A stretch of 28,311 nt of DNA, taken from assembly GCA_015523565.1 (NCBI GenBank), contig WAKA01000190.1:1-28311 (forward strand), in the 5' to 3' direction. Positions 1,171 to 27,975 of the stretch are shown here, one piece after another (position 1 is the stretch's first letter; each line of letters starts with the position of its first letter). Below the pieces are notes generated by a model. The model saw only the letters and a list, made by a program, of their open reading frames with translations. It was not told where the DNA came from and did not search any database. Position numbers and translations under genes: made by a program. This stretch comes from Candidatus Heimdallarchaeota archaeon (GTDB lineage Archaea > Asgardarchaeota > Heimdallarchaeia > Heimdallarchaeales > Kariarchaeaceae).

Positions 1171-1217
1171 ATTATGGCGGACGGTGGACGAATACAATTG
1201 GATGACTTGGATTGTAA

Positions 1218-1778: not shown

Positions 1779-1788
1779 GTGATGAAAA

Positions 1789-3150: not shown

Positions 3151-3171
3151 TCAGTTCGTTTATGTCAGTTT

Positions 3172-3897
3172 ATGGTTTGGGATGCCAGTTTTAAGAATTT
3201 CTTGAAAAGATTTATTGAAGCAGACATTTCCACTGAAATTGATGTTCCAACAGCTAACCTCAGACTTGACTTCTTAATTAAAAAAAAAGGGAAGTTGCCC
3301 TTTCCTTTTTCTTATACTAAGGGAACAATATTGGGGGAATTCAAGAGTGAAAGGGACAAATTTTCAATTGACGACATATACAAAGGGTTGGCAAAGGCTT
3401 ATCTTCATATAGGGTCAAGCAAATCAGAAAATGTCACGGATGTTACACTGATGTTCATAATTGGGGAAAAACCTCTACCTTCAAAACTTCCTGTTTATTT
3501 TGATTTAAATCCAATTGAAAAAGGCGTCACAGTGCTTCAACATCAGGTTCATACTATTGTTGTTGAACTTGACAAGATAGAATACGATGAAGAAAACATG
3601 TTTCTTGGTATTTTTGCGTCCAAACCAATCAGGAAACGGATAATTGCCAAAGCCCTTCAAGAAAGGGAAAGTTTTATTATATCATATTCATATTTTCTTT
3701 ATAAGGACGAGGTGGTCGAAGTGGCTAAGGCAGAGAATATTGAAGTTGATCCTAGAGCATTAAGCATAAGGTCAGCAGTGGAAAGCATTGGGATAGATCG
3801 GATCATAGAGGAATTTGGGATTGAAAAAACGTTGAGTCAATTGACTCCAGAACAGAAAGATAAGATTTTGAAAATACTTTCTCAAGAAAGGAAATAA
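3172..3897 (+). CDS. Rpn-like / PD-(D/E)XK nuclease-family protein with C-terminal helical repeat domain
   Basis: ATG 3172 (MVWDASFK) is in frame with the listed ORF. Motifs WDASFK, LRLDFLI and GEFKS fit PD-(D/E)XK. C-terminus IGIDRIIEEFGIEKTLSQLTPEQK. Confidence 0.7.
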   Translation: MVWDASFKNFLKRFIEADISTEIDVPTANLRLDFLIKKKGKLPFPFSYTKGTILGEFKSERDKFSIDDIYKGLAKAYLHIGSSKSENVTDVTLMFIIGEKPLPSKLPVYFDLNPIEKGVTVLQHQVHTIVVELDKIEYDEENMFLGIFASKPIRKRIIAKALQERESFIISYSYFLYKDEVVEVAKAENIEVDPRALSIRSAVESIGIDRIIEEFGIEKTLSQLTPEQKDKILKILSQERK

Positions 3898-4291: not shown

Positions 4292-6397
4292 TTATTTGAT
4301 TTTGTTGGATTTCTTTGTTCTTGGATCACATTTGTTTTGTTCAAAAGGTTGTATCCAAATATACTTGAAACATCCTCCTGCTTTGTTGGCGTTATAATTT
4401 TCTTTGACATTTTCATATGAAGATATTCCTTTTGGATCAAAGAAAAGCACTTTTTTCATTCTTGGCAAGATGACTGTCCAAAAATGATCACCTATTTCAA
4501 TTCCAATCCATTTTCTTTTTAATTTATGTGCAACGGCAATTGTTGTTCCACTTCCCGCGAAAAAGTCCATTACGTATTCATGTGGTTTTGTGCTGGTTAG
4601 GATTACTCTTTCAAGGAGTTCTTCAGAATTTTCCGTTTGAAATCCCCAAGAGGAAGTGTACCCTTGGATATCTGTCCAGTTTGAATCAATGGGGAAATCT
4701 TTTCTTTCTTCAATGAGGTAATCGACTTTTGGATTGTTCAATCCACATTCTGGACACCCTTTCCACGTTCCTTTTCTATGGATGTATCCACAGGGGCATC
4801 TAATTCTTATTTTTTCTTGTTTTTCAAGTTCATCGATTTTTTTTTGTGAAAAGGTCCATCCTCTTCCTTTCGGAGGGGATATTTTGGCACCGAAAATTTT
4901 TTTTGCTTTTCCTCCGCTGATGGAAAGGTTCATGGAAGTCATGTCATGCCAATATGGTTTTTTTGGTTTTGTCAATTTTTTACGGAACGGGTTGAAGTAA
5001 TGATTGTTTGATTTGGAATAAAAGAACAGTGAATCATTTGCGACAGGGTAACGTTTTGCATTGAATCCCTTTTTGACGATCCTCTTGATTTGGATTTCGT
5101 TTCTGAAATTATCGGGACTGAATATCTGATCCATCAATAATCTTACAAGCATGTTGCCATTATGGTCACATCTGACAAAAATGGATCCATCTTTTTGGAG
5201 AAAATGTTTGGCTATCGAAAGTCGGTTTTCGAGGAGAGTTATCCATGTGCTGTTCTTATAGTTGGTTTTATACTTGTATCTGTTTTGTCCACCTAAATTG
5301 AATGGGGGATCGATATAGATTGCCTTGACTTTTTCTTTGAATAATGGCAAAAGAAAATTGAGCGCTTGGAAATTTTCAGAGAAAATGAGCCATCCGTCAA
5401 TTATTTTCTCGTTTATTATTTCTGAGAAACTAAAATTGAAGTATTTGGTATCAAGTGGCAAGAACTGTATAGGTTTTGGCAATATTTCTGTTTTCAAGGA
5501 AATGGGTTCAGAGATGAATCCAAGTTCCATCCATTCCTGCATTTGCATTTTCCAACCTTCTGTTTCTGATAATTCCATTAGAAGTTTCATTCCTCCAATT
5601 TCCAATATCCTGTCCAAGGTGATAACAAAATGGGTTTCCAGGATAGGTTTTATTTTGAGCCATCTGTTGAGTTCATGATGAAGGATATCTATCAGAAAAT
5701 TGATGATTATGTCTCCCAATTGTACAAAAATGCCAAAATTATTTCTGTTTGAGATGAATTGTTTGTATTTCCAATAATTGAACTGTTCTTGTAGAAATTC
5801 TTTTGGGTTTTTTGGTATAAAGTACTCAATCTCATTTCGGTTCCAATAACTGTTGATTGCTTTTTTGATTGGTGAGGTTTTAAGGTTCAATGCTTTGGAA
5901 AGGGAGTCAATGAAGTCGTTTAGATTGAAATTATTGTTGACCGGGTTGCAATTAAGCAAAATATGAACCTGGACTTGTCTACTTGTCTTTTTTATGTTTT
6001 TGATTTTCATTGAAATGAATGCTCTATAGACCCTTGACTTTTCCGTTAGTTGGCTTGTGTCAAAAAAAAATGAAAATTGTTTTCCTTCTATTTTTATTGT
6101 TGTTTTTTCAGATTTGAATTCCCCTTCTTTTCGTATTAGGTAATGTTGTTCTGTTATCCATACAAGTTTGACATCATTGAGATTCACAATTCTTTCTTTT
6201 GGTTTAGCTTTCAAATTCAATGACTTGACAAATTCAGTCATAGTTTCAAGGTTTTTTTCATGAAGCAAGGTTTCTTGTTGTAATAATTCATTTTTTAATT
6301 CAATTGTTCTTTCCTTCTCCCCAATTGGCTCAAGATATGCGGAAACTGCCTTGATCAGTTTATCCACTTGTTTCATTAGATCCTGCTGATTTTTCAT
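4292..6397 (-). CDS. Site-specific DNA amino-methyltransferase, beta class, type III Mod-like; no res gene adjacent
   Basis: Catalytic IYIDPPFN precedes SAM-binding DFFAGSGTT; SENFQAL, WITLLENRL and RKWIGIE motifs; Cys-rich insert in the target-recognition region. Confidence 0.9.
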   Translation of the reverse strand: MKNQQDLMKQVDKLIKAVSAYLEPIGEKERTIELKNELLQQETLLHEKNLETMTEFVKSLNLKAKPKERIVNLNDVKLVWITEQHYLIRKEGEFKSEKTTIKIEGKQFSFFFDTSQLTEKSRVYRAFISMKIKNIKKTSRQVQVHILLNCNPVNNNFNLNDFIDSLSKALNLKTSPIKKAINSYWNRNEIEYFIPKNPKEFLQEQFNYWKYKQFISNRNNFGIFVQLGDIIINFLIDILHHELNRWLKIKPILETHFVITLDRILEIGGMKLLMELSETEGWKMQMQEWMELGFISEPISLKTEILPKPIQFLPLDTKYFNFSFSEIINEKIIDGWLIFSENFQALNFLLPLFKEKVKAIYIDPPFNLGGQNRYKYKTNYKNSTWITLLENRLSIAKHFLQKDGSIFVRCDHNGNMLVRLLMDQIFSPDNFRNEIQIKRIVKKGFNAKRYPVANDSLFFYSKSNNHYFNPFRKKLTKPKKPYWHDMTSMNLSISGGKAKKIFGAKISPPKGRGWTFSQKKIDELEKQEKIRIRCPCGYIHRKGTWKGCPECGLNNPKVDYLIEERKDFPIDSNWTDIQGYTSSWGFQTENSEELLERVILTSTKPHEYVMDFFAGSGTTIAVAHKLKRKWIGIEIGDHFWTVILPRMKKVLFFDPKGISSYENVKENYNANKAGGCFKYIWIQPFEQNKCDPRTKKSNKIK

Positions 6398-8032: not shown

Positions 8033-8695
8033 TTACGTAATTTGGCTTAATGGAATAAACAATTCAATGAAGACAAACGAAAATACAATTGCGGTGGCAT
8101 TGAAAAATCCTATATTTGTAAAATCATGGATAATTTTGATCCTAAGGACAATGTAATAGATATAGGTGATAAAAAAGAAAAGTGATAATGATGAAAAAGG
8201 AAATAAGGTTAAGAAGGGAATGGATGCAATTGTTGTAACTAAATACATTCTTACAACGCCATGAAAATGCAATAATTTATTATTTGAATATGTTATAATG
8301 GATTGGACAATTGCAAGGGCAATTTGGATTGCAAAGAATAATGGTATGAATATCCCACTGTTGAATGGAAGTTGCGGGTCGTATTGTATCCATGAAAGAA
8401 TTGACAGGTAAATGATTTCTGCCAAAATAGTTAATGTTACAACTTTGTTTGTTTTTTTATCTAAAATGAATTGATTTAATCTTCCATTGTCCGCCAACAA
8501 GACACCAACAATCAATTGAATTGCAGAGGGGTCCTTAAAGACAGTTCTCCGTTTTTTTTTACTTTTGAACAAATCAAACACATCGGATGATTTATTGCTT
8601 TCTAAATAATGCTTTTTCAATTGAATTCCGCAATGGATACAAAAATTGCTTTCTTCAATTTCTGCATAGCAATTGGGACAATTCATTTTGCTCAC
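8033..8695 (-). CDS. Zn-ribbon membrane protein (divergent Yip1-like)
   Basis: CPNC..FCIHCG, then about 5 TM helices; GTG start overlaps the upstream stop codon. Confidence 0.7.
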   Translation of the reverse strand: MSKMNCPNCYAEIEESNFCIHCGIQLKKHYLESNKSSDVFDLFKSKKKRRTVFKDPSAIQLIVGVLLADNGRLNQFILDKKTNKVVTLTILAEIIYLSILSWIQYDPQLPFNSGIFIPLFFAIQIALAIVQSIITYSNNKLLHFHGVVRMYLVTTIASIPFLTLFPFSSLSLFFFITYIYYIVLRIKIIHDFTNIGFFNATAIVFSFVFIELFIPLSQIT

Positions 8696-9663
8696 TAACT
8701 TTTCAGATCGATTTTGGATAGGGATTGTCTCAGTTGGCTCAGTCTTAAAATGGATCGATTCAGTGAATCTAAGAGATTTTCAAAGCTGTCTACCGTTTTT
8801 CCGACATTTCTGAACTTATCTGTCAATTCTTCAATTCCTTCAACAACATCTGCTGTTGATGTTTTTCCTGATGTATTCAATAAGTTTCCGAGGTCTTTCA
8901 ATTCTTCGCTCAATCTTTTAGTTTGGTCTGCAAGTTTTTGAACGTTGTTTGAAACAACTTGGAACCCTGACCCAAGCTGACCAACTTTAACAGCTTCAAT
9001 TTCTGCATTAAGGGAAAGTATCTTGTTCTGTTTTGCAATTGAATTCAGAAGACTTGAAAACTCCATTATTTTTGAGGAAGTATTGACAACAAGTTCCTCA
9101 AAACTGCTGATTTCAGTTGCAGTTTGGTTCAAGGCATCATTCAATACATTTTGGAAGTCAATCAGGTCTTCACGTAAATCGATGTAATCTGCCAAAAGGG
9201 AGTTTATTCTATCGATCTCGTAATCAATTTTCTCATAGACTGCATCAATTTCGACTTTATAGAGGTCTTGAATTTCTTGGGTTTTTTCAAGTTGATTATC
9301 AAGCATTTCAAGTTTTTCATCAAGTTTCTTGAATTCATTTGGGATAGGTCCAGGATGTATTGCACTTCTTTTTCGAAGAGTTATGTCATCTACCCTGTTT
9401 TCGGTATATTCAATGTATGGTTTTATTTCAGTGAAGTAATACGTGAGAAGATAAGTTGCCAGTCCAACAGCAATGATTTGAAAGAAGTAGAATACCAAGA
9501 AGTATTCCGCAATTACCAAAAGCATGGCAATAATGGAGAAAACAACAGCACCCAAACCTGAGATCAAAATTCTATGTTTTTTTGCCTTTTCAATAGCTTC
9601 CTTTAATTCAAAGTTCATTTTTCTTGGATTGAATAACTTTGACTCTGTCTTATCCTCAAGCAT
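8695..9663 (-). CDS. Methyl-accepting chemotaxis-like protein (2 TM + MCP signalling hairpin)
   Basis: IAKQNKILSLNAEIEAVKVGQLGSGFQVVSNNVQKLADQT matches the MCP tip consensus. Confidence 0.85.
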   Translation of the reverse strand: MLEDKTESKLFNPRKMNFELKEAIEKAKKHRILISGLGAVVFSIIAMLLVIAEYFLVFYFFQIIAVGLATYLLTYYFTEIKPYIEYTENRVDDITLRKRSAIHPGPIPNEFKKLDEKLEMLDNQLEKTQEIQDLYKVEIDAVYEKIDYEIDRINSLLADYIDLREDLIDFQNVLNDALNQTATEISSFEELVVNTSSKIMEFSSLLNSIAKQNKILSLNAEIEAVKVGQLGSGFQVVSNNVQKLADQTKRLSEELKDLGNLLNTSGKTSTADVVEGIEELTDKFRNVGKTVDSFENLLDSLNRSILRLSQLRQSLSKIDLKS

Positions 9664-15202: not shown

Positions 15203-15616
15203 ATGTCAAATGTATGTCCCAACTGCCATTCTGCTGTGGAACCCAACGCAAAATTCTGTATGGAATGTGGAACTCAAATTCAACCTTTGAAAGGAGTGCC
15301 TACAACGACATCGCAACAACAGCCAGTTATTCCAAATCAACAATCACAAGCAACTGTTTCTGCTCCGATTTCACAGCAATCAATGGCTTCGTATGATCCC
15401 AACAAATTTTATCGTTCGTGGAATGACAGAAAATGGTTAGGGGTCTGTGGCGGTCTTGCAAAACATTTGAATATGGATTCGGATCTTGTCAGGTTTTTGA
15501 CCGTCGTGTTGTTCTTGATGACTGGCGGGTCAGTCTTAATTGCCTATATTGTTGCGGCGTTGATTTTCCCATATGATCCAAGAGAATATCCCCCGCAACC
15601 CATGCCAACGGTCTAA
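15203..15616 (+). CDS. Zn-ribbon + PspC domain protein
   Basis: CPNC..FCMECG; FYRSWNDRKWLGVCGGLAKHLNMDSDLVR...YIVAALIFP fits the PspC consensus. Confidence 0.88.
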   Translation: MSNVCPNCHSAVEPNAKFCMECGTQIQPLKGVPTTTSQQQPVIPNQQSQATVSAPISQQSMASYDPNKFYRSWNDRKWLGVCGGLAKHLNMDSDLVRFLTVVLFLMTGGSVLIAYIVAALIFPYDPREYPPQPMPTV

Positions 15617-15700: not shown

Positions 15701-15889
15701 ATGAGTACAACATCAAGCTTATCAGAATTTATCTGTCCAATTTGTGATGCAAGAAATGAATATGATGACATATTTGAGGTTGGGGAACTTCTAGATTGTT
15801 TTGAATGCGGAAGTGAATTGGAAGTCGTTTCCACAAATCCACTTCAAATTATAGAGTCAGAAATCGAAGCTGAAGATTGGGGACAATAA
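15701..15889 (+). CDS. lysW: Amino-group carrier protein LysW with non-canonical C-terminal Gln
   Basis: CPIC/CFECG Zn ribbon, GSELEVVS, acidic, ends EDWGQ (gaa gat tgg gga caa taa). Confidence 0.93.
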   Translation: MSTTSSLSEFICPICDARNEYDDIFEVGELLDCFECGSELEVVSTNPLQIIESEIEAEDWGQ

Positions 15890-15899
15890 GGTAAGAAAA

Positions 15900-16751
15900 A
15901 TGAAAATTGGATTTATTCATTCTCTCATTCGCAAAGATGAGAAATTATTGATCGCAGAGTTCAACAGAAGAACCAATGTAGACCTAGTTAGAATTGATTC
16001 CCGTCAATTTTTGGGGGATTTTGATGGAATGAATGCTTCATTGGAACAATTTGATGGTGCAATTGAACGGACTATAGGAATGACTGAAGGTCGATACATG
16101 GCAATGATGCTGGAAGGCTATGGTATTCCTGTCATCAATTCTTCAGAAGTGATTGCGATTTGTGGGGACAAGGTTACAACTTCTTTTCGTTTGTCACAAT
16201 CTGGAATATCCCAACCACAGACAGGCATTGCATTTTCGGCAGAGAGCGCAATGGATTTGGCAGAGAGGATGGGATTTCCTGTTGTCATCAAACCCATTGT
16301 CGGGTCATGGGGACGTCTTCTTGCCAAAATAAACGACAGGGATGCACTTGAGGCAATTGTGGAGCACAAGCTAAGATTGGGAAATTTCACCCATTCAGTC
16401 ATTTACATGCAGAGTTTTATAGAAAAGGGAAATAGGGATATACGTGCCTTTGTTGTAGGGGATCAATGCATTGCGGCCATTTACAGGGAAAGTGAACATT
16501 GGGTTACAAACACTGCGAGAGGGGGAAAAGCATTCAATTGTCCCGTTACTGATGAACTGAATGATATTGCAACAAGGGCCGCCAGTTCTGTTGGTGGGGG
16601 AATTTTGGCAGTTGACCTCATGGAAAGTCAAGATGGTTTAGTCGTGACAGAAGTCAATGCAACAATGGAATTCAAAAACAGCATTAAGACGACAGGTGTA
16701 AACATCCCTGCCCATATTGTCTCATTTGTTTTAGAGGAGGCAAGAGCATAA
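15900..16751 (+). CDS. lysX: Alpha-aminoadipate/glutamate--LysW ligase (RimK-family ATP-grasp)
   Basis: CGDK, VIKPIVGSWGRLLAK, RDIRAFVVG, HWVTNTARGG, EVNATMEFKNS; directly follows lysW. Confidence 0.93.
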   Translation: MKIGFIHSLIRKDEKLLIAEFNRRTNVDLVRIDSRQFLGDFDGMNASLEQFDGAIERTIGMTEGRYMAMMLEGYGIPVINSSEVIAICGDKVTTSFRLSQSGISQPQTGIAFSAESAMDLAERMGFPVVIKPIVGSWGRLLAKINDRDALEAIVEHKLRLGNFTHSVIYMQSFIEKGNRDIRAFVVGDQCIAAIYRESEHWVTNTARGGKAFNCPVTDELNDIATRAASSVGGGILAVDLMESQDGLVVTEVNATMEFKNSIKTTGVNIPAHIVSFVLEEARA

Positions 16752-17776
16752 TGATTGACGTATCAATTGTCGGCGGTTCTGGATTTGTGGGTGGTGAACT
16801 TTTGCGGATCCTGCTGTCTCATCCTGAAATAAATGTGAAGCAAGTTACATCGGAAAGGTATGCAGGACGGTATTTGAAAAGCGTTCATCCTCATTTACGT
16901 GGTCGTACCAACCTGAAGTTTTCAAATGCAAGTGAAATGGAATGTGTAGATTTGGTTTTTCTGGCTCTACCGCATGGTGAATCCTCTCGACGGATTGGTT
17001 ATTTTGAAGAAGTCAGTGAAAGGATTATTGATCTTTCAGCAGACTTTCGGCTTGGCAGTAATGAAGAATATGTACAATGGTATGGATTTGAACATCCACG
17101 TGAAGAGCTTTTAGATCGATTTGCTTATGGGATTGCAGAGATAAACCGAGAACAAATCAGGAATTCGCGGTTTGTTTCATCAGCAGGATGCAATGCCACT
17201 GCAAGCATCCTTTCACTTTATCCATTGGCAAAAGAGGGAATGATCTCTGATGTTTTGATTGACGCAAAAGTTGGAACTTCAGAAGGAGGACGCAAAAGTT
17301 CTGAAGCATCCCATCATCCTGTCCGAAGTGGAAGCATAAGAAGTTACAGGCCCGTTATGCATCGTCACATTGCAGAAATTGAACGTTATTTGGGACTTTC
17401 AGGGGTGAAATTCAGTTCAACTTCATTTGATTTTGTCAGGGGTGTATTGGTCACAGTTCATGCAAGTTTGACCGATAATATGAATGAAAGGGATTTATGG
17501 AGGCTTTACAGGAAATACTATTCTTCAGAGCCTTTTATAAGGTTCATTAATGACAAAAGGAGCATATTCAGGTATCCTGATCCAAAATTGGTAGCGGGAA
17601 CAAATTATTTTGATCTTGGATTTGCAGTTGATGATCATAGTGACCGGGTCGTAATTTTGGGAGCATTGGACAATTTGATGAAGGGAGCCGCGGGACAAGC
17701 AGTCCAAGCCATGAATTTAATGCTTGGGTTTGAGGAGACCATGGGACTAGAGTTTCATGGAATTTTTCCATTGTAA
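16751..17776 (+). CDS. lysY: [LysW]-aminoadipate/glutamate phosphate reductase (ArgC family)
   Basis: GGSGFVGGELLRIL, FLALPHG, IDLSADFR, AGCNATA, SHHP, DNLMKGAAGQAVQ. Confidence 0.93.
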   Translation: MIDVSIVGGSGFVGGELLRILLSHPEINVKQVTSERYAGRYLKSVHPHLRGRTNLKFSNASEMECVDLVFLALPHGESSRRIGYFEEVSERIIDLSADFRLGSNEEYVQWYGFEHPREELLDRFAYGIAEINREQIRNSRFVSSAGCNATASILSLYPLAKEGMISDVLIDAKVGTSEGGRKSSEASHHPVRSGSIRSYRPVMHRHIAEIERYLGLSGVKFSSTSFDFVRGVLVTVHASLTDNMNERDLWRLYRKYYSSEPFIRFINDKRSIFRYPDPKLVAGTNYFDLGFAVDDHSDRVVILGALDNLMKGAAGQAVQAMNLMLGFEETMGLEFHGIFPL

Positions 17777-17790
17777 AGAGGTGAAAGAGT

Positions 17791-18465
17791 ATGTGTAGAA
17801 TACTGACAGGCAAATTTAGAAGATTTGTGGAAATCAATGGCTTATTGGAAGAATTTGCCATGCAATGCCGAAACAGCGAAGAATATCAAGGGCATGGCTG
17901 GGGAATTACCTATTTTAATGGTCAGGATTGGATCACAAGAAAATGGATTGAACCTATTTGGCAATCCCTTCCAGAAGAAAAGATATTGACAAGTGTTTTT
18001 TTGGTTCATGCCAGATCCGCTTTTCGTGATGAGGGTATAAAAATAGAGAACAATATGCCATTTGAGAATGAGAGGTATGTATTTGCTTTCAATGGAGAGT
18101 TGAGGGATGTAAGACTGAAAGCAAAAGGTGAAACAGGAGCCCATAAGATATTCAACATGTATCAAAGGCATAGGGAACCAAGTCCCATGCTTAGACTGGC
18201 GAAATTGACAAATTTACTGAAAAAACGGTCTGGATATATTAAAGCAATGAATATTGCCATTCTGGATAAATTCACCCAGTTGCAGTATGTCTATTCATAT
18301 TTCAATGAAAATCCAGACTATTTCAGACTTCATCGACAAACAGGAGCAGGTTCAACAATCATAAGTTCAGTTCCATTGGTTCGCAACTGGGTTAAGGAAT
18401 TGATGAAAGATACCCAGATCACATTGAAATCAGTCATGGGAAACCAATTTCTGGAAGTAATTTAG
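17791..18465 (+). CDS. Class II glutamine amidotransferase / Ntn-hydrolase (YafJ/EgtC/Dug3-like)
   Basis: N-terminal MCR (Cys2 nucleophile), GHGWG, LVHARSA, NNMPF, FAFNG; GAGGTGA RBS. Confidence 0.88.
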   Translation: MCRILTGKFRRFVEINGLLEEFAMQCRNSEEYQGHGWGITYFNGQDWITRKWIEPIWQSLPEEKILTSVFLVHARSAFRDEGIKIENNMPFENERYVFAFNGELRDVRLKAKGETGAHKIFNMYQRHREPSPMLRLAKLTNLLKKRSGYIKAMNIAILDKFTQLQYVYSYFNENPDYFRLHRQTGAGSTIISSVPLVRNWVKELMKDTQITLKSVMGNQFLEVI

Positions 18466-18474
18466 GGTGAACAA

Positions 18475-20478
18475 ATGAGGCGAATAATAAAAATCGGCGG
18501 AGGAAGGTCAATCAATCTTGAAGGTATAGCAAGAGGGCTTTCGAAGCTTGAGGGTGAAAACATAATTGTTCTTGGAGCAAACGCCCTTCGTGATGAGTTT
18601 GCGTTTAGGCTCGGTTATAAGAAAAAAACCATTAGGTCTGTTTCAGGAGTTGAGAGTGTATTTACTGATGATGAAATGATGGACTTGATTAATTTGTCCT
18701 ATTCCGGCATAAGAAGAAACAGGTTTGTTGAAATGTGCCACACTTATGGGATAAATGCAATTGGTCTTTCAGGGATTGATGGAGGATTAATTCAAGGAAA
18801 AAAGAACAAAGGCATAAGAACGATTATCAATGGAAAGAAGAAGGTGATCAGGGATCAAAGCGGTAAACCTGTAAAAGTCAACGTAAAATTGCTTGAACAA
18901 TTATTGGTCAGCGGATACACTCCTGTGATAACGATTCCCATTTTGGGGCAGGACAATGAAATTTTGAATACAGAAAATGATCAAATTGTTTCATTGCTTC
19001 AAAGGGAAATGCTGGCTGATGAGGTAATTCATTTTATTGAAGCAAATGGGATAATTGGTGATGATGGAGGCACAATTTCCCAATTGGAAAAAGATGATCT
19101 TGAAATCCTTGTTAAAAATTCGGATGGAAGGTTTCGAAGGAAACTGATGACTTTTCAATCCATCTTGGAAAATTCTGCGGTCATTCGAGTTGTCGATGGC
19201 AGGGGTGATTGCCCAATAACTGATTTAATTGAGGGAAAAGGGACAACCTTGAATGTGCGGATGGGTACAAGAGAAAATTTGGAAAGAGTGATGACTGAAA
19301 ACATTGAAACAGAAAAATCTCTTTCAGTATTGGTCACCAATAAGAGAAATATTTCATTGGAAAGGGGCAAGGGTTTGTATGTTTGGGATTTGACTGGTCG
19401 AAAGCTTCTTGATTGCAGTGGGGGATGGGGGGTTGCGTTGGTTGGTCATTCCAATGATTCAGTTATTCAGGGACTTATTCGTCAAATGAGCCGTATAATG
19501 ATAGCGCCTATAACATTTGGGAATTCATCAAGGCTTTCATTGATGAGGAAATTGGTTGAAATTACACCTTCTAGATTAAATCGTGTATTTTTAGCTAATT
19601 CAGGAACGGAAAGCATTGAGGCGGCAATTAAATTTGCATTGCAAAGCACAGGTCGCAAAAGAATTGTATCTGCAACTAAGGCATTTCATGGACGGTCACT
19701 TGGAGCGCTATCGGTTACGCATTCCCCAAGATACAGAAATCCATTCAAGGGTTGGTTGAATGAAGAAAATGTTGATTTTATTTCATTTAACTCGCTGAAT
19801 TCATTGGAAGAGAAAATAACAGGAGAAACCGCCGCAGTGATTTTGGAACCAGTGCAAGGTGAAGGAGGAGTCAATCTTGCAAAAACGGAGTTCATAAAGG
19901 CGATACGGAAAAGATGTGATGACGTGGGGGCATTGTTGATTTTTGATGAGGTTCAGACAGGATTTGGAAGAACTGGAAGAATGTTTGCTTTTGAGTGGTA
20001 TGGCATTGAGCCTGATATTTTGTGTTTGGCTAAAGGAATTGCTGGAGGATTTCCGATGGGAGCTGTGTTGGTTAACAACAAAGTCAATATCCAACTTGGT
20101 TCCCATGGTTCAACATTTGGGGGTAATCCAATGGCTTGTGCCGCGGCACTTGCCTCCTTGAATTTCATAATTGAAAACAATCTTGTTGGGCAATCGGAAA
20201 TAATTGGAAAGTATTTCCTGAAAAAGCTTGAAGATGAAATTTTACCGTTTCCAAATGTCAGATCAGTTAGGGGGAAAGGACTCATGATTGCTGTTGAATT
20301 GAAGCGTTCAAACAAGGAACTGTCTAATTATATGCATGAAAATGGCATTATTGTGATTCCAACAGGAAGAAATGCAATCCGTTTTCTTCCCCCTCTTATA
20401 ATTGAAGAAGCAGAAATTGATTTTATTGTTTCAGTATTGAAAGAAGGGTTACAGAAAGGGATGAAATTCAAGGATTAG
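18475..20478 (+). CDS. lysZ/lysJ: Fused [LysW]-aminoadipate/glutamate kinase (LysZ) and semialdehyde aminotransferase (LysJ)
   Basis: N-terminal [24 protein letters not shown] (amino-acid kinase). C-terminal [53 protein letters not shown] (class III PLP aminotransferase). No internal stop. Confidence 0.9.
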
Positions 20479-20573: not shown

Positions 20574-22535
20574 ATGACTCGGAAATTGTTGTGGAAACCT
20601 AGTGAAGAACGAATAAAAAACGCCAACATAACGAGATTCATTGAATTTGTGAATAAACGTCATGGTCTTGATCTCAAGGACTATAATGACCTACATAAAT
20701 GGTCAATATCCGAGGTCGAAAATTTTTGGAAAGCTGTTTGGGATTTTGTGGAAATTAAACATTCCAAGCCTTATGAAAAAGTTGTTGAAAATCTGCATGA
20801 CTTTCCTCCTAAAACCCAATGGTTTGTTGGAGCAGAACTTAATTTTGCAGAGAACCTTTTAAGGTATAATGATGACCATGATGCCTTTTTGTTCAAAAGG
20901 GAAGATTCAGATGTCAGAAGAATGACATATGCACAACTTCATGATGAGGTAAGAAAGATTCATTTTGGCTTGAAAAAGCTTGGAATTAAACCAGGGGACA
21001 GGGTTGTTGGATATATGCCCAATACAATAGAAACTGTGATTGCCATGCTTGCGGCGGCTTCATTAGGGGCAGTGTGGGCTTCATGCGGTGCAGAATTGGG
21101 TTCTGATGCGGCATTGGATAGATTGGGTCAAGTGGAACCCGTTGTTCTGTTTACTGCTGATGCATACATGTACAAAGGGAAAAAGTTCGATTTGTTGGGC
21201 AAAGCCAAAAAGGTGGCTGATGGTATTCCAAATCTTAAACAAATGGTGGTATTGCCATATGTGGAACAAAATCTTGAATTAAATGGAATTGATAAGGCAG
21301 TTTCTTGGAACGATTTTTCTGAGGAATCAACTGAAAAGATTGAATTTGTACAATTGCCTTTTAATCATCCCCTGTATATCATGTTCTCATCAGGAACAAC
21401 GGGCAAACCAAAATGCATGGTTCAAAGTGCTGGTGGGGTTCTGATTAACCATTTGAAGGAATTGGTTCTTCATACTGACCTAAAGAGAGATGACAAGATT
21501 CTATATATTACATCACCTTCTTGGATGATGTGGAACTGGCTTGTTTCTTCCTTGGCTGTGGGTGCAACTGTTGCATTATATGATGGCAATCCCCTTTATC
21601 CTGATTGGCGGGTTATCTTCAAGTACATTCAAGATGAGAAAATCACAATTTTCGGATGCAGTGCCAGTTATATCCATACATTGATCAAACTTGGAGCCAA
21701 TCCAGCCGAGGAATTTGACCTTTCTGCTCTCAGGGAAATTTCACAAACAGGTTCTGCTCTTTCTGAAGAGGGATTCGAATTTGTCTATTCAAAGATCAAG
21801 AAGGATCTGCACTTCAATTCGATTTCTGGTGGAACAGACATAAATGGATGCTTTGCCGCTGGCAGTCCCACCTTGCCTGTTTATATGGGTGAATTACAGG
21901 CTCTTGCACTGGGAATGAATGTAAAGGCGTATGATTATGACATGAACCCCATTTATGATGAACAGGGAGAGCTTGTCTGTGAAACTCCTTCCCCTTCAAT
22001 GCCTATCTATTTCTGGAATGACCCCAATAATGAAAAGTACAACAGGGCATATTTCGAGTTTTTCAAAGGGAAAAGGGTTTGGAGACACGGTGACTATGTA
22101 CTGATCCATAAGGATACTGGTGGTATTACATTTTATGGGAGATCTGATTCTGTTCTGAAGCCTTCTGGTGTTAGGATTGGCACTGCCGAAATTTACAATA
22201 TTGTAGAGGAAATGCCTGAAATTGTCGACAGTTTGGCAATTGGGAAGAATGTTGATGGAGATCAAATTGTTTTGCTGTTTGTCCAAATGGCAGAAGGATA
22301 TGAACTTACAGAAGAGCTGAAGAAACGGATAAAAGAAAGTCTGAAAACACGGGCATCACCACGTCATGTGCCAGCAGAGATTATTCAAGCCCCAGATATC
22401 CCATATACATTTAGCGGTAAAAAGGTGGAATCTGCTGTGACTAACATTATCAATGGGAGACCAGTGACAAATCGTGGTGCGCTTCGCAATCCTGAATCTC
22501 TTGATTTTTATGAAGAATATGCAAAGAATCATTAA
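20574..22535 (+). CDS. Acetoacetate--CoA ligase (acetoacetyl-CoA synthetase)
   Basis: LNFAENLL, MFSSGTTGKPKC, SWMMWNWL, SISGGTDI, VWRHGD, GRSD..LKPSGVRIGTAEIY, SPRHVP, SGKKVE. Confidence 0.95.
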   Translation: MTRKLLWKPSEERIKNANITRFIEFVNKRHGLDLKDYNDLHKWSISEVENFWKAVWDFVEIKHSKPYEKVVENLHDFPPKTQWFVGAELNFAENLLRYNDDHDAFLFKREDSDVRRMTYAQLHDEVRKIHFGLKKLGIKPGDRVVGYMPNTIETVIAMLAAASLGAVWASCGAELGSDAALDRLGQVEPVVLFTADAYMYKGKKFDLLGKAKKVADGIPNLKQMVVLPYVEQNLELNGIDKAVSWNDFSEESTEKIEFVQLPFNHPLYIMFSSGTTGKPKCMVQSAGGVLINHLKELVLHTDLKRDDKILYITSPSWMMWNWLVSSLAVGATVALYDGNPLYPDWRVIFKYIQDEKITIFGCSASYIHTLIKLGANPAEEFDLSALREISQTGSALSEEGFEFVYSKIKKDLHFNSISGGTDINGCFAAGSPTLPVYMGELQALALGMNVKAYDYDMNPIYDEQGELVCETPSPSMPIYFWNDPNNEKYNRAYFEFFKGKRVWRHGDYVLIHKDTGGITFYGRSDSVLKPSGVRIGTAEIYNIVEEMPEIVDSLAIGKNVDGDQIVLLFVQMAEGYELTEELKKRIKESLKTRASPRHVPAEIIQAPDIPYTFSGKKVESAVTNIINGRPVTNRGALRNPESLDFYEEYAKNH

Positions 22536-25500
22536 GAACCAAAAATTTTGTATTTAACAGTAATGGGCTGATTTTTGAAAAGGATTGTTTCTTTTCCTGT
22601 GCACATGTCAACAAAATTCCGAATTCTGGATGCATTTTTCATACTTTGCCGTTTTTTAGGGATATAATTCAAGAAATTATTTGAAGCAACCAAGATAATT
22701 TTTCCTTTTGCACGAGATGTCAATACATTGAATCTGTTCAGTTCATAAATGAATTCCTCCTCTTTCTCCAATTGGGATCTTGATGAAATTCCTATTGTTC
22801 CAATTATCAAGTCCCTGTCAGATCCTTGGAATTTTTCCACAGAGAATGTTGTATTTCTTAGTTCAGCCATCAGTTCCTCATTTTGAAGATTACTAATGTC
22901 TTTTAGGCTTTCATATATTTTTCTGACTATTAATCGTCCTTGTGCATTATGTGGTGCTACAATTCCTATTTTGGTACTCCAGAATTCCTTTTCTGATTGG
23001 ACTGAATCTGGTTCAATCATTTTGAAATAATTGGCAACAATATTTTCAGTTATGTCTGCTTCAATTTCTGAGATGGATGTATCAAATTTGGTATCATGGA
23101 CAATGGTCAACAAGATTTTTTTAGGATCCAATACTAGACTGGCAAAACTATCTGTTATATTGTTTATATTGCCTTGAATTTTGTATTCTGCGTTATTCTT
23201 ATGAACCTGTAGGTTATTATAAATCTGCAATGAACGGGTATAGTTGACAATCTCTTGGTTTGATCTGTAATTGACATTCAATTGAATAGGTATCATTCCA
23301 TGGATTTCAACAAAATATGAAAATGCACTTTTCAAGATTCCCTCCAGCTTTCGAGGTGGCAAGATTGGTTGAACAGGTGGAAGCTGGAAATGATCACCAA
23401 CTAGTACAAGTTTGGTCAGGTCGTCAAATTCTTTTGAAGTCTCAATTTCAATTGCCTGATAATCCAAAATCCTACCATTTTCCCCCAATTCACTGGTGAT
23501 TTTGATAGTAGTCTCTGCTTGTTTCAAGAACAGCAAAATACTTAGAAATTGATCGATTGGCAATTGGGAGGATTCATCGCAAATTATGTAATCAAATCCG
23601 AATCCCTTGTCAAATGGCATTTTTCCATCTATCCCGAAATACAGGTTGACAATCTGTTGGGGATTTGCAAAGATGATGAATGATTCTTTTAAATGATCAG
23701 TCAGTCTTTTCCTTTTTGTTATGACTCTTGATTTTCCATTCAATTTCCATGTCCTTCCGTCTTTCACCAGATTTATGATTCCTTCAGCAGATTCTCTTGA
23801 AGCCGATCGGACAAAAACAAGATCAATCTCCTTGTCAGCAACAATTGGTTTTAATTTTTCCAAGACAACATGCATTGCTTGATAAGAAAATGCCGTGATC
23901 AAGATTTTGACTGTTTTTTCATTGTTCACAAGAATTTCATTGACCAATGCCGCGATTGTTTGAGATTTTCCTGTTCCTGGTGGTCCTTGAATTAATGAAA
24001 AAATGGAATTCATTGCATTGATGATGGCTTGTTTTTGTGATTCATCTGGATTGGGATTGTTTTTTGACTTGATTTGCGTTATTGGCGTCAGCGGTTTGAT
24101 TTGATTCAATGCTTTTGGCTTGAAGAGGTATACTGTAGCAATGTCATTCTTGAATTCAATTTCTCCATTTGGAGGTTTCAGTGTTTTTTGTGTCAATCCC
24201 ATAATTTTCTCGAAACGATGCCCTAACCATGTTGTGCCAATATTTTTTTCATAGAGAATGCTCTTCAACTTGCTTGACCAAAAATCCCCTGAAAATGGAT
24301 AAAGGAACCATTCAGATTTGTCACCATCACTTGACATGTTTTTGTATTCCTGAATGAAGTTTTTGCTGACATAATCTGAAATTAAAACAAAAGACTTTGT
24401 CTCAGGATCCCATTCCATTGAAATTATTCTTATTTTCCATGAGTTGACGATTTGGCTATCTCTAAAGTCATAGGGAACAATCAATACAATGTCCCCCTTG
24501 GAAATTTTCATGTTTGCTGAAAGACCTTTGATCCTGATTTTGTATTGATATGAAATTCCTCCTCTGGAGCCTTCTATCTTATTAATTATGGAAATATCAT
24601 CAATTTTGGCGGCCATAAGTTTTGCAATAGAGAAAAGTGGAAACATCTGCCTATAATATGCAACTTCCAAGTTTTGTACTGTTCCAGACAATTTGGAAAA
24701 AAGATACCAGATTTTGGCAATTCCATGAAAATCCTCATCAAGATAATTAATTCTTAATGCCTTAGATTCAACAGGAATGGAATACTTGGATATCAGTTCT
24801 CTAGCCGACCTTTGAAACTGAATCCGGATGCTATTAAGTACTTCCAATTTTCGCAGTTGCTGTGATTTTATCTTTTCGATCATCCTGAATTTTTTGTCAA
24901 ATCTTTTTTCTTCCAAAGCAAAGTGCCATTTCTGAAATTCCATGTAATTGAAATGCTGTTTCCAATAGTTTGAATCAATACTCTTTGGGAATTTACTTCC
25001 AAGGTAATATTTTCCAATGTCTCTCCAAGTGTAATTCAATACAAAAGGAAATCCCATTAATGTTTCTGCAAATGCCCTTAGGTCGTAAACTTTCTTTAGT
25101 TGCAGATCATGCCTTACCTTGCTTTCTTTTGGAGTTAACCATTCCGTTACGGCTTGAAGATATTTTCTGCTATTTTTGTCAGAGAACAACATATACATGG
25201 TTCTTTCGAGAAGGGCCTCAATGCTTTCAAGAACTTCATGAGACCAATAATACGCCGCGGTTACTGGTGCTTTATGGCTTTTCCCGTAAGGGGTTTCAAT
25301 TGTTACCTGTGCCATTTCCTCTAAATAAGAAGCAAGCCTGACCAAATTGCTTAGGAACTTTAATGCGGTTTTGGCAAGGGTGATTTCATCTTCCCTGTCA
25401 AGACTTCCTGCAACATAAGAGTATCCAAAAGAAATGATTTTGCTTCCGTTTTGAAGCTCTTGGATATTTACGTCAATATTTTCATCATCACATATGCTTT

Positions 25501-26923
25501 GAAGCATAGAGGTGGCATTTTTGAAATTGTGCTTTGTAATCTTTGATTTGATGTTCTTACTTGCTGAAAGTTCATTAAGTCTTTCCAAGGATTTATCAAA
25601 TATTTCTGATTGATTTTGTTTTTCTATTTCTTTTTGTTGTTTTAATTGCATTTTTGCAATTTTGAATATTGTTTCCCATATTTCTGAAAACAACTCATAA
25701 TATTCAGTACCGCGATAAATGAAAATTGAACAATAAATGCCTATCGAATAGATAAAATCATTTATTGGATCCAAATTCGCATCAAATACAATGGAAATGT
25801 CTGAAAATTTAGGAATAGAAATTGAGACTGCTTCTTTTCTGTTTGGTTTTTGGATTTGATTGCTGAGCAATGCTTTTGTCTTAAGCTTTAGAAGGGGTAA
25901 TTCCGCATACAAGGGTCGTGGAATTTCTCCGATTTCAAAATTGGAAAGGATATCATTAGCCTTTTTTAGTGTCTTGATACCCATTTGTTTTAGCTCTTCA
26001 ATTGTTGAGTAATCCAAATATGGAATGAGATCGATTTTCCAATTGCTACGCGAACTATTGATCCCAAATGTTTCCTTGCAGTCTGGCAAATACTTGCATC
26101 TCCCACATGATGGCTGTATTTTTGTTGGAATGGTTTCAATCGTTGCGGGAAGGTTCTTTGATATTTCTGATAATGTCTCAAGTGCATTGCCATAAATTTG
26201 TGATGCTTCATCATAATTGAATCTAATGGCCGATTTTTCAAATTCTTCAATTGTAGGAGGCATTTTCATTTCAACATTCGGGACTATGCCATTTCCATTA
26301 GCCTTGACAAAAAAACGATTGTCTAGTCCATGGTCTCTCAAAAACCAAGCCAATGCATGCATGTAAAGAAGTATTTCTGCAAAATGTTTTTTGCTGACAA
26401 AATCCTCATGAGTGATCTTGATGTCCAGAATTGTTATTCCAATAGGGTTCATGACATTGGAGGGAAGATTTTCAACTTTGCCCTGCCAAGTAAATATCTT
26501 TTCATCCTCTCTCAATGGTCTAAAAATTAGTATATCTGGTCTAAACCTATCTGAATAAGATTTAGGCAAATTTCCATTAAGTAACTCTTGAATGAATTTT
26601 CTATTGACCTTGAAACTATGTTCCAATAAAACAAGACTTGGGACAAAATTTTGATTTTGAAGAAACATTGGGTTCAAAACTGTTTCTTCTATTTGATTTC
26701 CTTGCTCATTATAGAATACATTGGACAAAGGAGTAAGTAATTGATAAACTCTCCTTTCATGGTTTTTTCCATAATTGACTTTTGTTTTCTGATATTTCTG
26801 TTTAGATATCTTTCTTTCATTTGTAATCCAGTTATTGTCATCTTCACCTAACATCAAAAACAATTGGCGTTCACATTCAAAGTCTGTCCACCTAACAAGA
26901 ACTTCTTTTCCAAATTTCCCCAT
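22532..26923 (-). CDS. Dna2/TM0106-like nuclease-helicase: PD-(D/E)XK nuclease with Fe-S cysteines + SF1 (Upf1/Dna2-type) helicase
   Basis: FECERQ, FRPDIL, ILDIK, CGRCKYLPDC; QGPPGTGKS, ICDESSQ, VGDHFQLPPV, NYRS, VEKFQGSDRD, RFNVLTSRAK. Confidence 0.9.
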   Translation of the reverse strand: MGKFGKEVLVRWTDFECERQLFLMLGEDDNNWITNERKISKQKYQKTKVNYGKNHERRVYQLLTPLSNVFYNEQGNQIEETVLNPMFLQNQNFVPSLVLLEHSFKVNRKFIQELLNGNLPKSYSDRFRPDILIFRPLREDEKIFTWQGKVENLPSNVMNPIGITILDIKITHEDFVSKKHFAEILLYMHALAWFLRDHGLDNRFFVKANGNGIVPNVEMKMPPTIEEFEKSAIRFNYDEASQIYGNALETLSEISKNLPATIETIPTKIQPSCGRCKYLPDCKETFGINSSRSNWKIDLIPYLDYSTIEELKQMGIKTLKKANDILSNFEIGEIPRPLYAELPLLKLKTKALLSNQIQKPNRKEAVSISIPKFSDISIVFDANLDPINDFIYSIGIYCSIFIYRGTEYYELFSEIWETIFKIAKMQLKQQKEIEKQNQSEIFDKSLERLNELSASKNIKSKITKHNFKNATSMLQSICDDENIDVNIQELQNGSKIISFGYSYVAGSLDREDEITLAKTALKFLSNLVRLASYLEEMAQVTIETPYGKSHKAPVTAAYYWSHEVLESIEALLERTMYMLFSDKNSRKYLQAVTEWLTPKESKVRHDLQLKKVYDLRAFAETLMGFPFVLNYTWRDIGKYYLGSKFPKSIDSNYWKQHFNYMEFQKWHFALEEKRFDKKFRMIEKIKSQQLRKLEVLNSIRIQFQRSARELISKYSIPVESKALRINYLDEDFHGIAKIWYLFSKLSGTVQNLEVAYYRQMFPLFSIAKLMAAKIDDISIINKIEGSRGGISYQYKIRIKGLSANMKISKGDIVLIVPYDFRDSQIVNSWKIRIISMEWDPETKSFVLISDYVSKNFIQEYKNMSSDGDKSEWFLYPFSGDFWSSKLKSILYEKNIGTTWLGHRFEKIMGLTQKTLKPPNGEIEFKNDIATVYLFKPKALNQIKPLTPITQIKSKNNPNPDESQKQAIINAMNSIFSLIQGPPGTGKSQTIAALVNEILVNNEKTVKILITAFSYQAMHVVLEKLKPIVADKEIDLVFVRSASRESAEGIINLVKDGRTWKLNGKSRVITKRKRLTDHLKESFIIFANPQQIVNLYFGIDGKMPFDKGFGFDYIICDESSQLPIDQFLSILLFLKQAETTIKITSELGENGRILDYQAIEIETSKEFDDLTKLVLVGDHFQLPPVQPILPPRKLEGILKSAFSYFVEIHGMIPIQLNVNYRSNQEIVNYTRSLQIYNNLQVHKNNAEYKIQGNINNITDSFASLVLDPKKILLTIVHDTKFDTSISEIEADITENIVANYFKMIEPDSVQSEKEFWSTKIGIVAPHNAQGRLIVRKIYESLKDISNLQNEELMAELRNTTFSVEKFQGSDRDLIIGTIGISSRSQLEKEEEFIYELNRFNVLTSRAKGKIILVASNNFLNYIPKKRQSMKNASRIRNFVDMCTGKETILFKNQPITVKYKIFGS

Positions 26924-27006: not shown

Positions 27007-27975
27007 ATGCGTAATCAAGTTGAAATAATGGCGGAGATAATAGAGCCACGTCAAGATGTTGTCACCTCTCTCCATTTGGATGATGAAAATCGTTTGGTTG
27101 TTGGAATGGGGGATTACCGCGTTCGTTTCTGGGATCTGAAATCTTATATGTTCTTGAAAGAAATCACGGGATTCTGGGAAGTAAGAGCTGTTTCTTCAGA
27201 TGAAGATTATTATTATATTGGTACATTAAGGGAAACAATTGAAGTTCTGGATAAAAAAACCTTTGAAAAGGTCAAGACATTGAGGCATGATCTTGGAATT
27301 CTCCATCTTTTCACGGATGGTTTCTTTCTTTATTCATGCTCACATGATGGGTCTGTGAAGGTATTTGATTTGGAAGACCTATCGGAATATAAAGTCTTGA
27401 TAGGGCATATGGAACGGGCAAATTGTACATGGTCTGATGACAATTTTGTATTTGTGGGCGAGGGTTTTATGATGAAAGGAGGGGTTTCAATTTATGATGC
27501 CAAGGATTTCAAATTGGTAAACAAGCTTCAAGATTTGAATTGCAAAAGAATCAATGCAATTTCAGGGAATAAGGATTATTTATTTTTGGGACATGGAAGT
27601 CCTCCTCGGCTTACCGTATGGGACAGGGATGATTATTCCATAATTCATTCAATTGATAGTTTTAACCATGATGTAATAGACATTCAATTGAACACAAAAT
27701 CTGCATTTATTGCAAGCAAAAGGCAATTATTGAAAATAGACCTTGAAACCATGCTTCCAGAGATCTTTCTCGAAATTGATGGTTATCCAATCAGCAGAAT
27801 GGCAGTCAATGACAGGTTTGTCTTTTTGGGATCAGGTCCTGACGTCATTGGTCTTGATGCAAATTCGATGATGAAAGTTCTTGAATTGAGAGGAGACAGT
27901 GTGGAAAATATAGAGCAAACGGAAGAAGAGGAATATGGCAAAATGGAACGTTTCACTGGTTTTAGCTTGCTTTAG
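27007..27975 (+). CDS. WD40/beta-propeller repeat protein
   Basis: About 40-aa repeats (VRFWDL, SCSHDGSVKVFDL, LIGH, LTVWDR). Confidence 0.88.
   Translation: MRNQVEIMAEIIEPRQDVVTSLHLDDENRLVVGMGDYRVRFWDLKSYMFLKEITGFWEVRAVSSDEDYYYIGTLRETIEVLDKKTFEKVKTLRHDLGILHLFTDGFFLYSCSHDGSVKVFDLEDLSEYKVLIGHMERANCTWSDDNFVFVGEGFMMKGGVSIYDAKDFKLVNKLQDLNCKRINAISGNKDYLFLGHGSPPRLTVWDRDDYSIIHSIDSFNHDVIDIQLNTKSAFIASKRQLLKIDLETMLPEIFLEIDGYPISRMAVNDRFVFLGSGPDVIGLDANSMMKVLELRGDSVENIEQTEEEEYGKMERFTGFSLL

What the first reader, a model, noticed from the sequence alone, without database searches (positions are those of the whole stretch)
17791..18465. No lysK in the operon: the Ntn-hydrolase may be a non-orthologous LysW-lysine/ornithine release enzyme
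Seen: the operon encodes W, X, Y, Z and J functions but no M20 peptidase (LysK), and the next gene is unrelated. Established: LysK hydrolyses the gamma-glutamyl amide between LysW and the product, the same bond type cleaved by EgtC and Dug3. Dop is both a deamidase and a depupylase. Inference: this enzyme could replace LysK, or do both deamidation and product release. Caveat: lysK is unlinked in some genomes.
Basis: partly seen in the sequence, partly recalled or inferred. Interest (0 to 1): 0.75.

Follow-up and report, generated by a model that had tools for sequence, protein, structure and literature searches.

The report
Cysteine hydrolase replacing LysK in lysine-operon
In this Asgard archaeon and in many bacteria, the carrier-protein (LysW) route to lysine lacks its usual last enzyme, LysK, and a small unrelated cysteine hydrolase sits in the operon instead; it most likely cuts the finished lysine off the carrier and probably also converts the carrier's terminal glutamine to the glutamate that the pathway needs.

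Summary
Observation confirmed. 17791-18465 encodes a 224-aa stand-alone class II glutamine-amidotransferase-like (Ntn, Cys2) protein, structurally closest to EgtC. It lies in lysW-lysX-lysY-[gene]-lysZJ (fused) of a Heimdallarchaeia genome (90% complete) that has no LysK. All 80 best GTDB relatives sit beside lys genes, none with lysK in the locus. Genome-wide, 2 of 143 genomes with this family hold LysK, and none of 99 other LysK genomes holds an intact copy. LysW ends in Gln (as here) only where this family or another glutamine-amidase is present, and Glu/Gln switches about 24 times within these operons. The enzyme keeps the nucleophile, oxyanion hole and carboxylate-binding Arg, but the Asp that binds a free alpha-amine is Gly, as expected for a protein-terminal gamma-glutamyl substrate. 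Best reading: non-orthologous LysW-gamma-lysine hydrolase (about 0.85) that probably also deamidates LysW-Gln (about 0.7). No activity has been measured, and I found no paper. This scan found the same family several times before on other DNA. New here: an Asgard copy, and a class I amidotransferase in the lysK slot in Undinarchaeota-like operons.

The parts
15701..15889 (+). lysW, amino-group carrier protein (62 aa, zinc ribbon, 16 Asp/Glu against 1 Lys/Arg), C-terminus EDWGQ: Gln in place of the usual Glu
   Evidence: PF21344 E 1.4e-12, TIGR01206 47 bits; Gln also in relatives G001, G002, G003, G006, G007, so not a sequencing error
15900..16751 (+). lysX, ATP-grasp LysW:aminoadipate ligase; substrate signature F-I-T-NS (lysine type)
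   Evidence: TIGR02144 333 bits over cut-off; motif read against PMC12998189
16751..17776 (+). lysY, LysW-aminoadipyl-phosphate reductase (ArgC family)
   Evidence: TIGR01850 378 bits
17778..17783 (+). Shine-Dalgarno-like GAGGTG, 7 nt before the ATG; places Cys at residue 2
   Evidence: sequence
17791..18465 (+). stand-alone class II GATase-like Ntn hydrolase; proposed LysW-gamma-lysine hydrolase and LysW-Gln deamidase. Cys2 nucleophile, Arg75, Asn101-Gly102, Gly116 (for the GlmS Asp123 position), Lys119
   Evidence: PF13230/PF13522 weak; model pLDDT 92; EgtC Z 23.7, rmsd 2.1 A over 198 residues; conservation; profile alignments; context
18475..20478 (+). lysZ-lysJ fusion (kinase residues 1-234, class III aminotransferase 292-657)
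   Evidence: also fused in the other genus members and in one Gemmatimonadota locus

Best explanation
The protein is the release enzyme of a LysW-dependent lysine pathway, a non-orthologous replacement of the metal peptidase LysK. After removal of Met1, Cys2 attacks the gamma-glutamyl amide between the C-terminal Glu of LysW and lysine, with Asn101-Gly102 as oxyanion hole. Lysine leaves, and the thioester is hydrolysed to regenerate LysW-Glu. Arg75 would hold the free alpha-carboxylate at the LysW C-terminus. The Asp that binds a free alpha-amine in GlmS, EgtC and YafJ-like enzymes is Gly116, which leaves room for the Gly-Glu peptide bond. Conserved basic residues (R3, R75, K119, R126) may dock the acidic carrier. 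The same chemistry on a terminal Gln releases ammonia, which would mature the EDWGQ carrier encoded here (probability about 0.7). Shown: fold, residues, gene context, distribution. Inferred: every catalytic step and the substrate.
For: (1) Context: 80 of 80 best GTDB loci have lysY or lysX before and/or lysZ after the gene (72 lysY before, 78 lysZ after), and none has a LysK-like gene. Distant members at 116-130 bits follow lysJ, the usual lysK slot, or sit next to homocitrate synthase. (2) Exclusion: LysK is over cut-off in 2 of 143 distinct genomes with the family, and in none of ten single-chromosome assemblies. In four small genomes the LysK search found no candidate at all (G117, G157, G160, G301). 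An intact copy of the family is in 0 of 99 other LysK genomes. The LysK model finds T. thermophilus, D. radiodurans, H. volcanii and S. acidocaldarius in the control. (3) In the own family the six genomes with LysX over cut-off are exactly the six with this gene. (4) Chemistry: the closest structure is EgtC, which removes a gamma-glutamyl group (PMC11993508). Cys2 89% (10% gaps), Arg75 100%, Asn101 98%, Gly116 98%, Lys/Arg119 100% in 106 diverse representatives. Gly116 aligns to the Asp of GlmS SDTD and EgtC CDS. (5) Gln-ended LysW sampled by motif, independently of this gene: 105 of 114 are in genomes with the family, none in a LysK-only genome. Among Glu-ended LysW, at least 85 go with LysK and 6 with this family. 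Glu/Gln needs 24 changes among family rows on a LysX tree and none among LysK-only rows. (6) A second unrelated amidase, class I, fills the lysK slot in other operons. (7) Complex prediction with LysW: weak support, 0.50 against best control 0.00; runs agree in at least 66% of contacts, partner pLDDT at least 73. That mark was reached by 58 of 80 solved complexes and 2 of 110 mismatched pairs, but at 0.60 or under by only 7 of the 80 and by both mismatches.
Against: No biochemical or genetic data. Most genomes are incomplete MAGs and related: the swap between the two enzymes needs only about 6 changes on the LysX tree, and the independent-pairs test (4 pairs, none in the wrong direction) cannot reach significance. 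This genome and many others hold a generic ArgE/DapE-type M20 that could in principle release lysine. Two genomes hold both enzymes: G159, which looks like a mixed bin (3 LysW-like, 3 LysX-like, 2 LysK), and G195. The GlmS profile alignment itself is weak (probability 9%); the EgtC and YafJ-like ones are 94-95%. The role of Asp123 and Arg73 in GlmS is from my own knowledge; I could not open the paper.
Confidence: 0.85

Rival explanations
1. The enzyme is only a carrier-maturing deamidase (LysW-Gln to LysW-Glu, like the first function of Dop on Pup). Lysine is released by an unlinked, generic M20 peptidase.
For: The LysW here ends in Gln. 105 of 114 Gln-ended LysW go with this family. G195 keeps an intact copy beside LysK with a Gln-ended LysW, while its LysX sister G282 (Glu-ended, lysK in the operon) holds only a deleted, frameshifted remnant. 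The genome has an ArgE/DapE-type M20.
Against: 46 of 63 LysW in the best family operons end in Glu and need no deamidation, yet the gene is intact and lysK is missing. 35 of 50 such genomes have no match to the LysK model even at E 1e-20, and four have no candidate at all. A deamidase-only role does not explain why lysK is absent.
Confidence: 0.08
2. It is a glutaminase subunit or a recycling amidase that supplies ammonia or glutamate to the pathway, or removes mis-loaded amino acids from LysW, without being the main release enzyme.
For: Pfam and fold place it among class II glutamine amidotransferase domains; GlmS and PurF score Z 20-21.
Against: No ammonia-accepting synthase is in any of these operons, and the pathway has no such step. 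The Asp that binds the free amine of glutamine is replaced by invariant Gly. It does not explain the loss of lysK.
Confidence: 0.05
3. The gene is a passenger in a horizontally spread operon. The exclusion reflects one ancient event and the pathway is completed by something else.
For: Most family operons form one LysX clade (153 rows, support 95), so the genomes are not independent.
Against: The gene is intact across more than 15 phylum labels of both domains. It appears in at least two operon positions and with several LysX lineages, and it has decayed in the one LysK, Glu-ended genome where a trace was found.
Confidence: 0.02

Closest known systems
LysK, [LysW]-lysine/ornithine hydrolase (M20 metallopeptidase, ArgE/DapE family; TIGR01902, NF003367)
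   Same: Same proposed reaction (release of the product from the gamma-carboxyl of the LysW C-terminal Glu) and same pathway; distant members occupy the same slot after lysJ.
   Different: No sequence or fold relation: a cysteine Ntn hydrolase of 210-225 aa against a metal-dependent peptidase of about 350 aa. Activity is shown for LysK and only inferred here.
EgtC, ergothioneine-pathway Ntn amidohydrolase (PDB 4zfj/4zfk/4zfl; TIGR03442)
   Same: Closest solved structure (Z 23.7, rmsd 2.1 A, 198 residues); stand-alone class II GATase-like domain with N-terminal Cys; removes a gamma-glutamyl group.
   Different: 13% identity; 24 bits against a cut-off of 219; no egt genes nearby; EgtC keeps the Asp for a free glutamyl amine, here Gly116; the proposed substrate is the end of a protein.
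Dug3 and YafJ-like GATase_4 proteins (PF13230)
   Same: Same Pfam family at weak scores; Dug3 is a class II amidotransferase-like part of the fungal glutathione-degrading complex (PMC12653102).
   Different: Separate subfamily with its own motifs (QG[HD]GWG, HARSAF, GA[EQ]K). In the genomes checked, YafJ-like paralogues score under 80 bits on its profile, members in lys operons over 115.
Dop (Pup deamidase/depupylase)
   Same: Analogy from my own knowledge: one enzyme both deamidates a C-terminal Gln of a small carrier and cleaves an isopeptide on the resulting Glu.
   Different: Dop has a glutamine-synthetase-like fold and acts in protein tagging; no homology was found or expected.

Membership tests
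Class II glutamine amidotransferase-like Ntn hydrolases | N-terminal Cys nucleophile after Met removal | tested here: met
   Met-Cys-Arg start with a ribosome-binding site; Cys2 in 89% of 106 representatives, 10% gaps. Processing in the cell is not shown.
Class II glutamine amidotransferase-like Ntn hydrolases | Ntn alpha-beta-beta-alpha fold | tested here: met
   Model pLDDT 92; EgtC E 6e-10, Z 23.7; GlmS domain Z 21.4
Class II glutamine amidotransferase-like Ntn hydrolases | Asn-Gly oxyanion hole and carboxylate-binding Arg | tested here: met
   N101-G102 and R75 align with GlmS HNG and HTR and are 97-100% conserved
True class II amidotransferases (GlmS, PurF, AsnB, GltB) | Asp that binds the alpha-amine of free glutamine | tested here: not met
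   Position is Gly116 (98%) in profile alignments to GlmS/PurF, EgtC and YafJ-like sets; the role of the Asp is from my own knowledge
True class II amidotransferases (GlmS, PurF, AsnB, GltB) | Fused or linked ammonia-accepting synthase domain | tested here: not met
   Stand-alone 224 aa; no acceptor gene in 80 loci. Fused forms were not searched with the 'longer' option.
EgtC | TIGR03442 score over cut-off | tested here: not met
   24.4 bits against 218.65
EgtC | Ergothioneine (egt) gene cluster | tested here: not met
   Conserved neighbours are lysW, X, Y, Z, J and homocitrate synthase
LysK (M20) | M20 peptidase sequence and fold | tested here: not met
   No M20 hit in Pfam or NCBIfam; the fold is Ntn
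LysK-like function | Hydrolysis of LysW-gamma-lysine | not testable with these tools
   Inferred from context, exclusion and chemistry only
LysW (AmCP) lysine pathway | lysW, X, Z, Y, J all present | tested here: met
LysW (AmCP) lysine pathway | LysX with the aminoadipate-type signature F-I-T-NS | tested here: met
   Window LysX and 150 of 158 LysX-like rows from family genomes (motif from PMC12998189)
LysW (AmCP) lysine pathway | Carrier encoded with C-terminal Glu | tested here: not met
   EDWGQ here and in five relatives
LysW (AmCP) lysine pathway | Upstream aminoadipate enzymes in the genome | tested here: inconclusive
   One homocitrate/isopropylmalate-synthase-like, one homoaconitase-family and one isohomocitrate/isopropylmalate-dehydrogenase-like gene, unlinked, mostly under specific cut-offs; no lysA over cut-off

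The most novel reading that the evidence does not exclude
One cysteine Ntn hydrolase both matures (Gln to Glu) and unloads (lysine release) the LysW carrier, a Dop-like double role in amino-acid biosynthesis. The release step of the LysW pathway has then been solved three times independently: M20 metallopeptidase (LysK), class II Ntn amidase (this family), and a class I glutamine-amidotransferase-like amidase in Undinarchaeota-like operons.
Probability: 0.55. Interest if true: 0.75.

Novelty: new variant of a known kind. Interest (0 to 1): 0.62.

Why it matters
It fills a missing last step of lysine synthesis in hundreds of species (573 related stretches in GTDB), among them Ignavibacteriota, Binatota, many Gammaproteobacteria, Woesearchaeota and Heimdallarchaeia, which pathway tools keyed on lysK would score as incomplete. 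It gives an unnamed family of about 2,200 clusters a testable function. It implies that a carrier encoded with a terminal Gln can be functional through post-translational deamidation, which matters for mining amino-group-carrier clusters by the EDWGE motif. It also offers a metal-free enzyme that cleaves a protein-terminal gamma-glutamyl isopeptide.

Tried and rejected
Single-sequence search of PDB sequences: nothing; the profile found only SPO2029 and EgtC weakly. An unlinked lysK in the own genome: not found by TIGR01902, by a custom LysK profile (best 158 bits against 414-544 for real LysK) or by tblastn with two real LysK. EgtC orthology and a GlmS/PurF-type amidotransferase role: rejected (membership table). 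Ornithine/arginine as product in this genome: disfavoured by the LysX signature and by the absence of argG and argH hits; some distant operons lie beside argH-argG-argF with another LysX motif and may make ornithine. Literature: ten searches found no paper that links LysW to a class II amidotransferase or Ntn hydrolase; GapMind 2026 (10.1101/2024.10.14.618325) does not contain 'LysK' or 'amidotransferase'. The library lacks most subscription journals, so novelty is not proven. Promoter and terminator scans were at chance level. Independent-pairs test: too few pairs. Direction of gene transfer was not tested. Genome G201 (unpublished) is one of the 50 Glu-type genomes; leaving it out changes 48/50 to 47/49.

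Full report
Observation. The window holds a tight run of genes on the + strand: lysW 15701-15889, lysX 15900-16751, lysY 16751-17776, the gene in question 17791-18465, and a lysZ-lysJ fusion 18475-20478, with gaps of 10, -1, 14 and 9 nt. The next gene, 95 nt on, is an acetoacetate-CoA ligase. The carrier ends in EDWGQ, not EDWGE; five relatives also have Gln. The host is in the same genus as 'Ca. Heimdallarchaeota archaeon BWSM_123': G003 and G110 give identical coordinates. The genome is 90% complete. It has six M20 peptidases, none on this contig and none over the LysK cut-off (106.8 against 163.1 bits). The best is a generic ArgE/DapE deacylase in an unrelated context.

What the protein is. 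It has 224 residues, begins Met-Cys-Arg behind a GAGGTG site, and hits class II amidotransferase models only weakly. A model with pLDDT 92 matches EgtC best (E 6e-10; Z 23.7, rmsd 2.1 A over 198 residues), then the GlmS and PurF glutaminase domains. EgtC removes glutamate from a gamma-glutamyl intermediate (PMC11993508). In 106 diverse representatives Cys2, Arg75, Asn101-Gly102, Gly116 and Lys/Arg119 are nearly invariant. Profile alignments put Arg75 and Asn101-Gly102 on the GlmS substrate Arg and oxyanion hole, and Gly116 on the Asp that GlmS, EgtC and YafJ-like proteins keep. From my own knowledge that Asp binds the free alpha-amine of glutamine. Its loss, with the Arg kept, fits a glutamyl group whose amine is in a peptide bond and whose alpha-carboxylate is free, which is the C-terminal residue of a protein.

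Context. The family has 2,206 clusters at 90% identity and 573 related stretches in GTDB. All 80 best loci have lys genes next to it, mostly W-(homocitrate synthase)-X-Y-gene-Z-J, in Ignavibacteriota, Binatota, Gammaproteobacteria, Calditrichota, Acidobacteriota, Woesearchaeota and others; none has lysK in the locus. Distant members at 116-130 bits follow lysJ, where lysK usually lies. The LysX signature is F-I-T-NS in the window and in 150 of 158 rows, the aminoadipate type of T. thermophilus (PMC12998189), so the product is lysine in most cases. In the genome's own family, the six genomes with LysX are the six with this gene.

Mutual exclusion at genome level. Of 143 distinct genomes with the family, 2 have LysK over cut-off. 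Ten single-chromosome assemblies have no match to the LysK model at E 1e-20, and in four small genomes the search found no candidate at all. Of 99 other genomes with LysK, none has an intact copy. The exceptions: G159 looks like a mixed bin with several LysW, LysX and LysK genes. G195 has a Gln-ended LysW, LysK and an intact divergent copy. Its sister on the LysX tree, G282, has a Glu-ended LysW, lysK in the operon, and only a remnant with about 65 codons missing and a frameshift. This single pair fits the idea that the gene is dispensable once LysK is present and the carrier ends in Glu, but an assembly error is not excluded. These genomes are related: the swap needs about 6 changes on a LysX tree, and only 4 independent pairs are available, none contrary.

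The terminal Gln. In the best family operons LysW ends in Glu 46 times and in Gln 17 times, never in another residue. To avoid selecting on the gene, I sampled LysW across GTDB by a DNA motif ending in Gln-stop or Glu-stop, 120 stretches each. Gln-ended: 64 of 114 have the gene in the locus and 41 more elsewhere in the genome; none is in a LysK-only genome; 9 have neither, six on short or cut contigs and three small archaeal genomes. Glu-ended: 37 have lysK in the locus, 48 of 50 further genomes have it elsewhere, and 6 have this family. Glu/Gln needs 24 changes among family rows and none among LysK-only rows. LysX activates a carboxylate (established chemistry of ATP-grasp ligases), so a Gln-ended carrier must be deamidated first. 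The simplest candidate is this gamma-amide hydrolase. Because most of the best family operons encode Glu and still lack lysK, deamidation cannot be its only job.

A third solution. Two of the three small archaeal genomes (one titled Undinarchaeales) have W(Gln)-X-Y-Z-J followed, with a 4-nt overlap, by a 222-aa class I glutamine-amidotransferase-like gene (PF00117 E 7e-18, catalytic GVCFG and FHAE motifs), and no LysK over cut-off. Three homologues at about 50% identity lie directly after lysJ in fuller aminoadipate operons, one with a Glu-ended LysW. An unrelated glutamine-amide hydrolase in the same slot supports the reading that gamma-glutamyl amidases can replace LysK.

Binding. The complex of the enzyme with LysW scored 0.50 against a best control of 0.00, graded weak support (runs agree in at least 66% of contacts, partner pLDDT at least 73). 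The mark was reached by 58 of 80 solved complexes and 2 of 110 mismatches, but at 0.60 or under by only 7 solved ones and both mismatches. I give it little weight.

Mechanism and rivals. Most likely (0.85): Cys2 attacks the gamma-amide of LysW-gamma-Lys, lysine leaves, and hydrolysis regenerates LysW-Glu; the same site probably deamidates LysW-Gln (about 0.7). Deamidase only, with release by a generic M20 (0.08), fails on the Glu-ended operons and on genomes without candidate M20s. Glutaminase or editing amidase (0.05) has no acceptor and lacks the amine-binding Asp. Passenger gene (0.02) is unlikely given conservation across both domains. All catalytic steps are inferred.

Known systems and novelty. 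It works like LysK but is not an M20 protein. It belongs to the class II amidotransferase-like Ntn fold but is neither EgtC nor a true amidotransferase. Ten literature searches and GapMind 2026 gave no description; most subscription journals are not in the library. Earlier agents of this scan reached the same reading on at least seven other genomes; I read those notes after my own tests and do not count them as evidence. Verdict: real, first reading supported, a new variant of a known pathway, interest 0.62.

Noticed in passing
L450:7685-8353, L451:7641-8309, L463:6001-6672, L465:6001-6672, L466:6001-6657: A class I glutamine-amidotransferase-like gene directly follows lysJ in LysW operons of Undinarchaeota-like archaea; the two genomes tested (G177, G179) have neither LysK nor the Ntn family. 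Candidate third type of LysW release enzyme.
   Followed up: partly
window 18475-20478: LysZ and LysJ are fused in one 667-aa protein; the fusion is shared by this genus and one Gemmatimonadota locus (L089), although the two steps are not consecutive in the pathway.
   Followed up: partly
window 15701-20478 against relatives G001-G082: Among 82 genomes of the same class only six, all in the own family, have LysX over cut-off, and their LysX groups with bacterial operons of this type; gain by horizontal transfer is likely but direction was not tested.
   Followed up: partly
L474:1382-1803 (G282) and L441:311-973 (G195): Genomes with sister LysX: one has Gln-ended LysW, LysK and an intact divergent copy of the Ntn gene; the other has Glu-ended LysW, lysK in the operon and a deleted, frameshifted remnant.
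   Followed up: partly
L446:1389-9609: A divergent operon argH-argG-argF-lysW(Gln)-X-Y-Z-J-Ntn gene with a different LysX signature; may make ornithine for arginine.
   Followed up: no
L438:10409-11731: A homocitrate-synthase-like protein with an N-terminal LysW-like zinc ribbon, next to a divergent copy of the Ntn gene and aconitase and dehydrogenase genes, in a probably mixed bin.
   Followed up: no
L462:1901-2746 (G000 contig C229): A second, distant class II amidotransferase-like gene in the own genome (51 bits on the family profile), not linked to lys genes; similar paralogues are common in the order.
   Followed up: no
window 22532-26923 (-): 1463-aa superfamily 1 helicase (AAA_11/AAA_12) with a long N-terminal part that has a nuclease-like look; weak hits to anti-phage helicase models.
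   Followed up: no
window 15203-15616, 4292-6397 (-), 8695-9663 (-), 27007-27975: Zinc-ribbon plus PspC protein just upstream of lysW; an N6/N4 DNA methyltransferase; a methyl-accepting chemotaxis signalling domain; a WD40-like propeller. ORFs at 7-3897 have no Pfam match.
   Followed up: no
G000 whole genome: argF is present but argG and argH were not found by tblastn, and no lysA passes its cut-off.
   Followed up: partly
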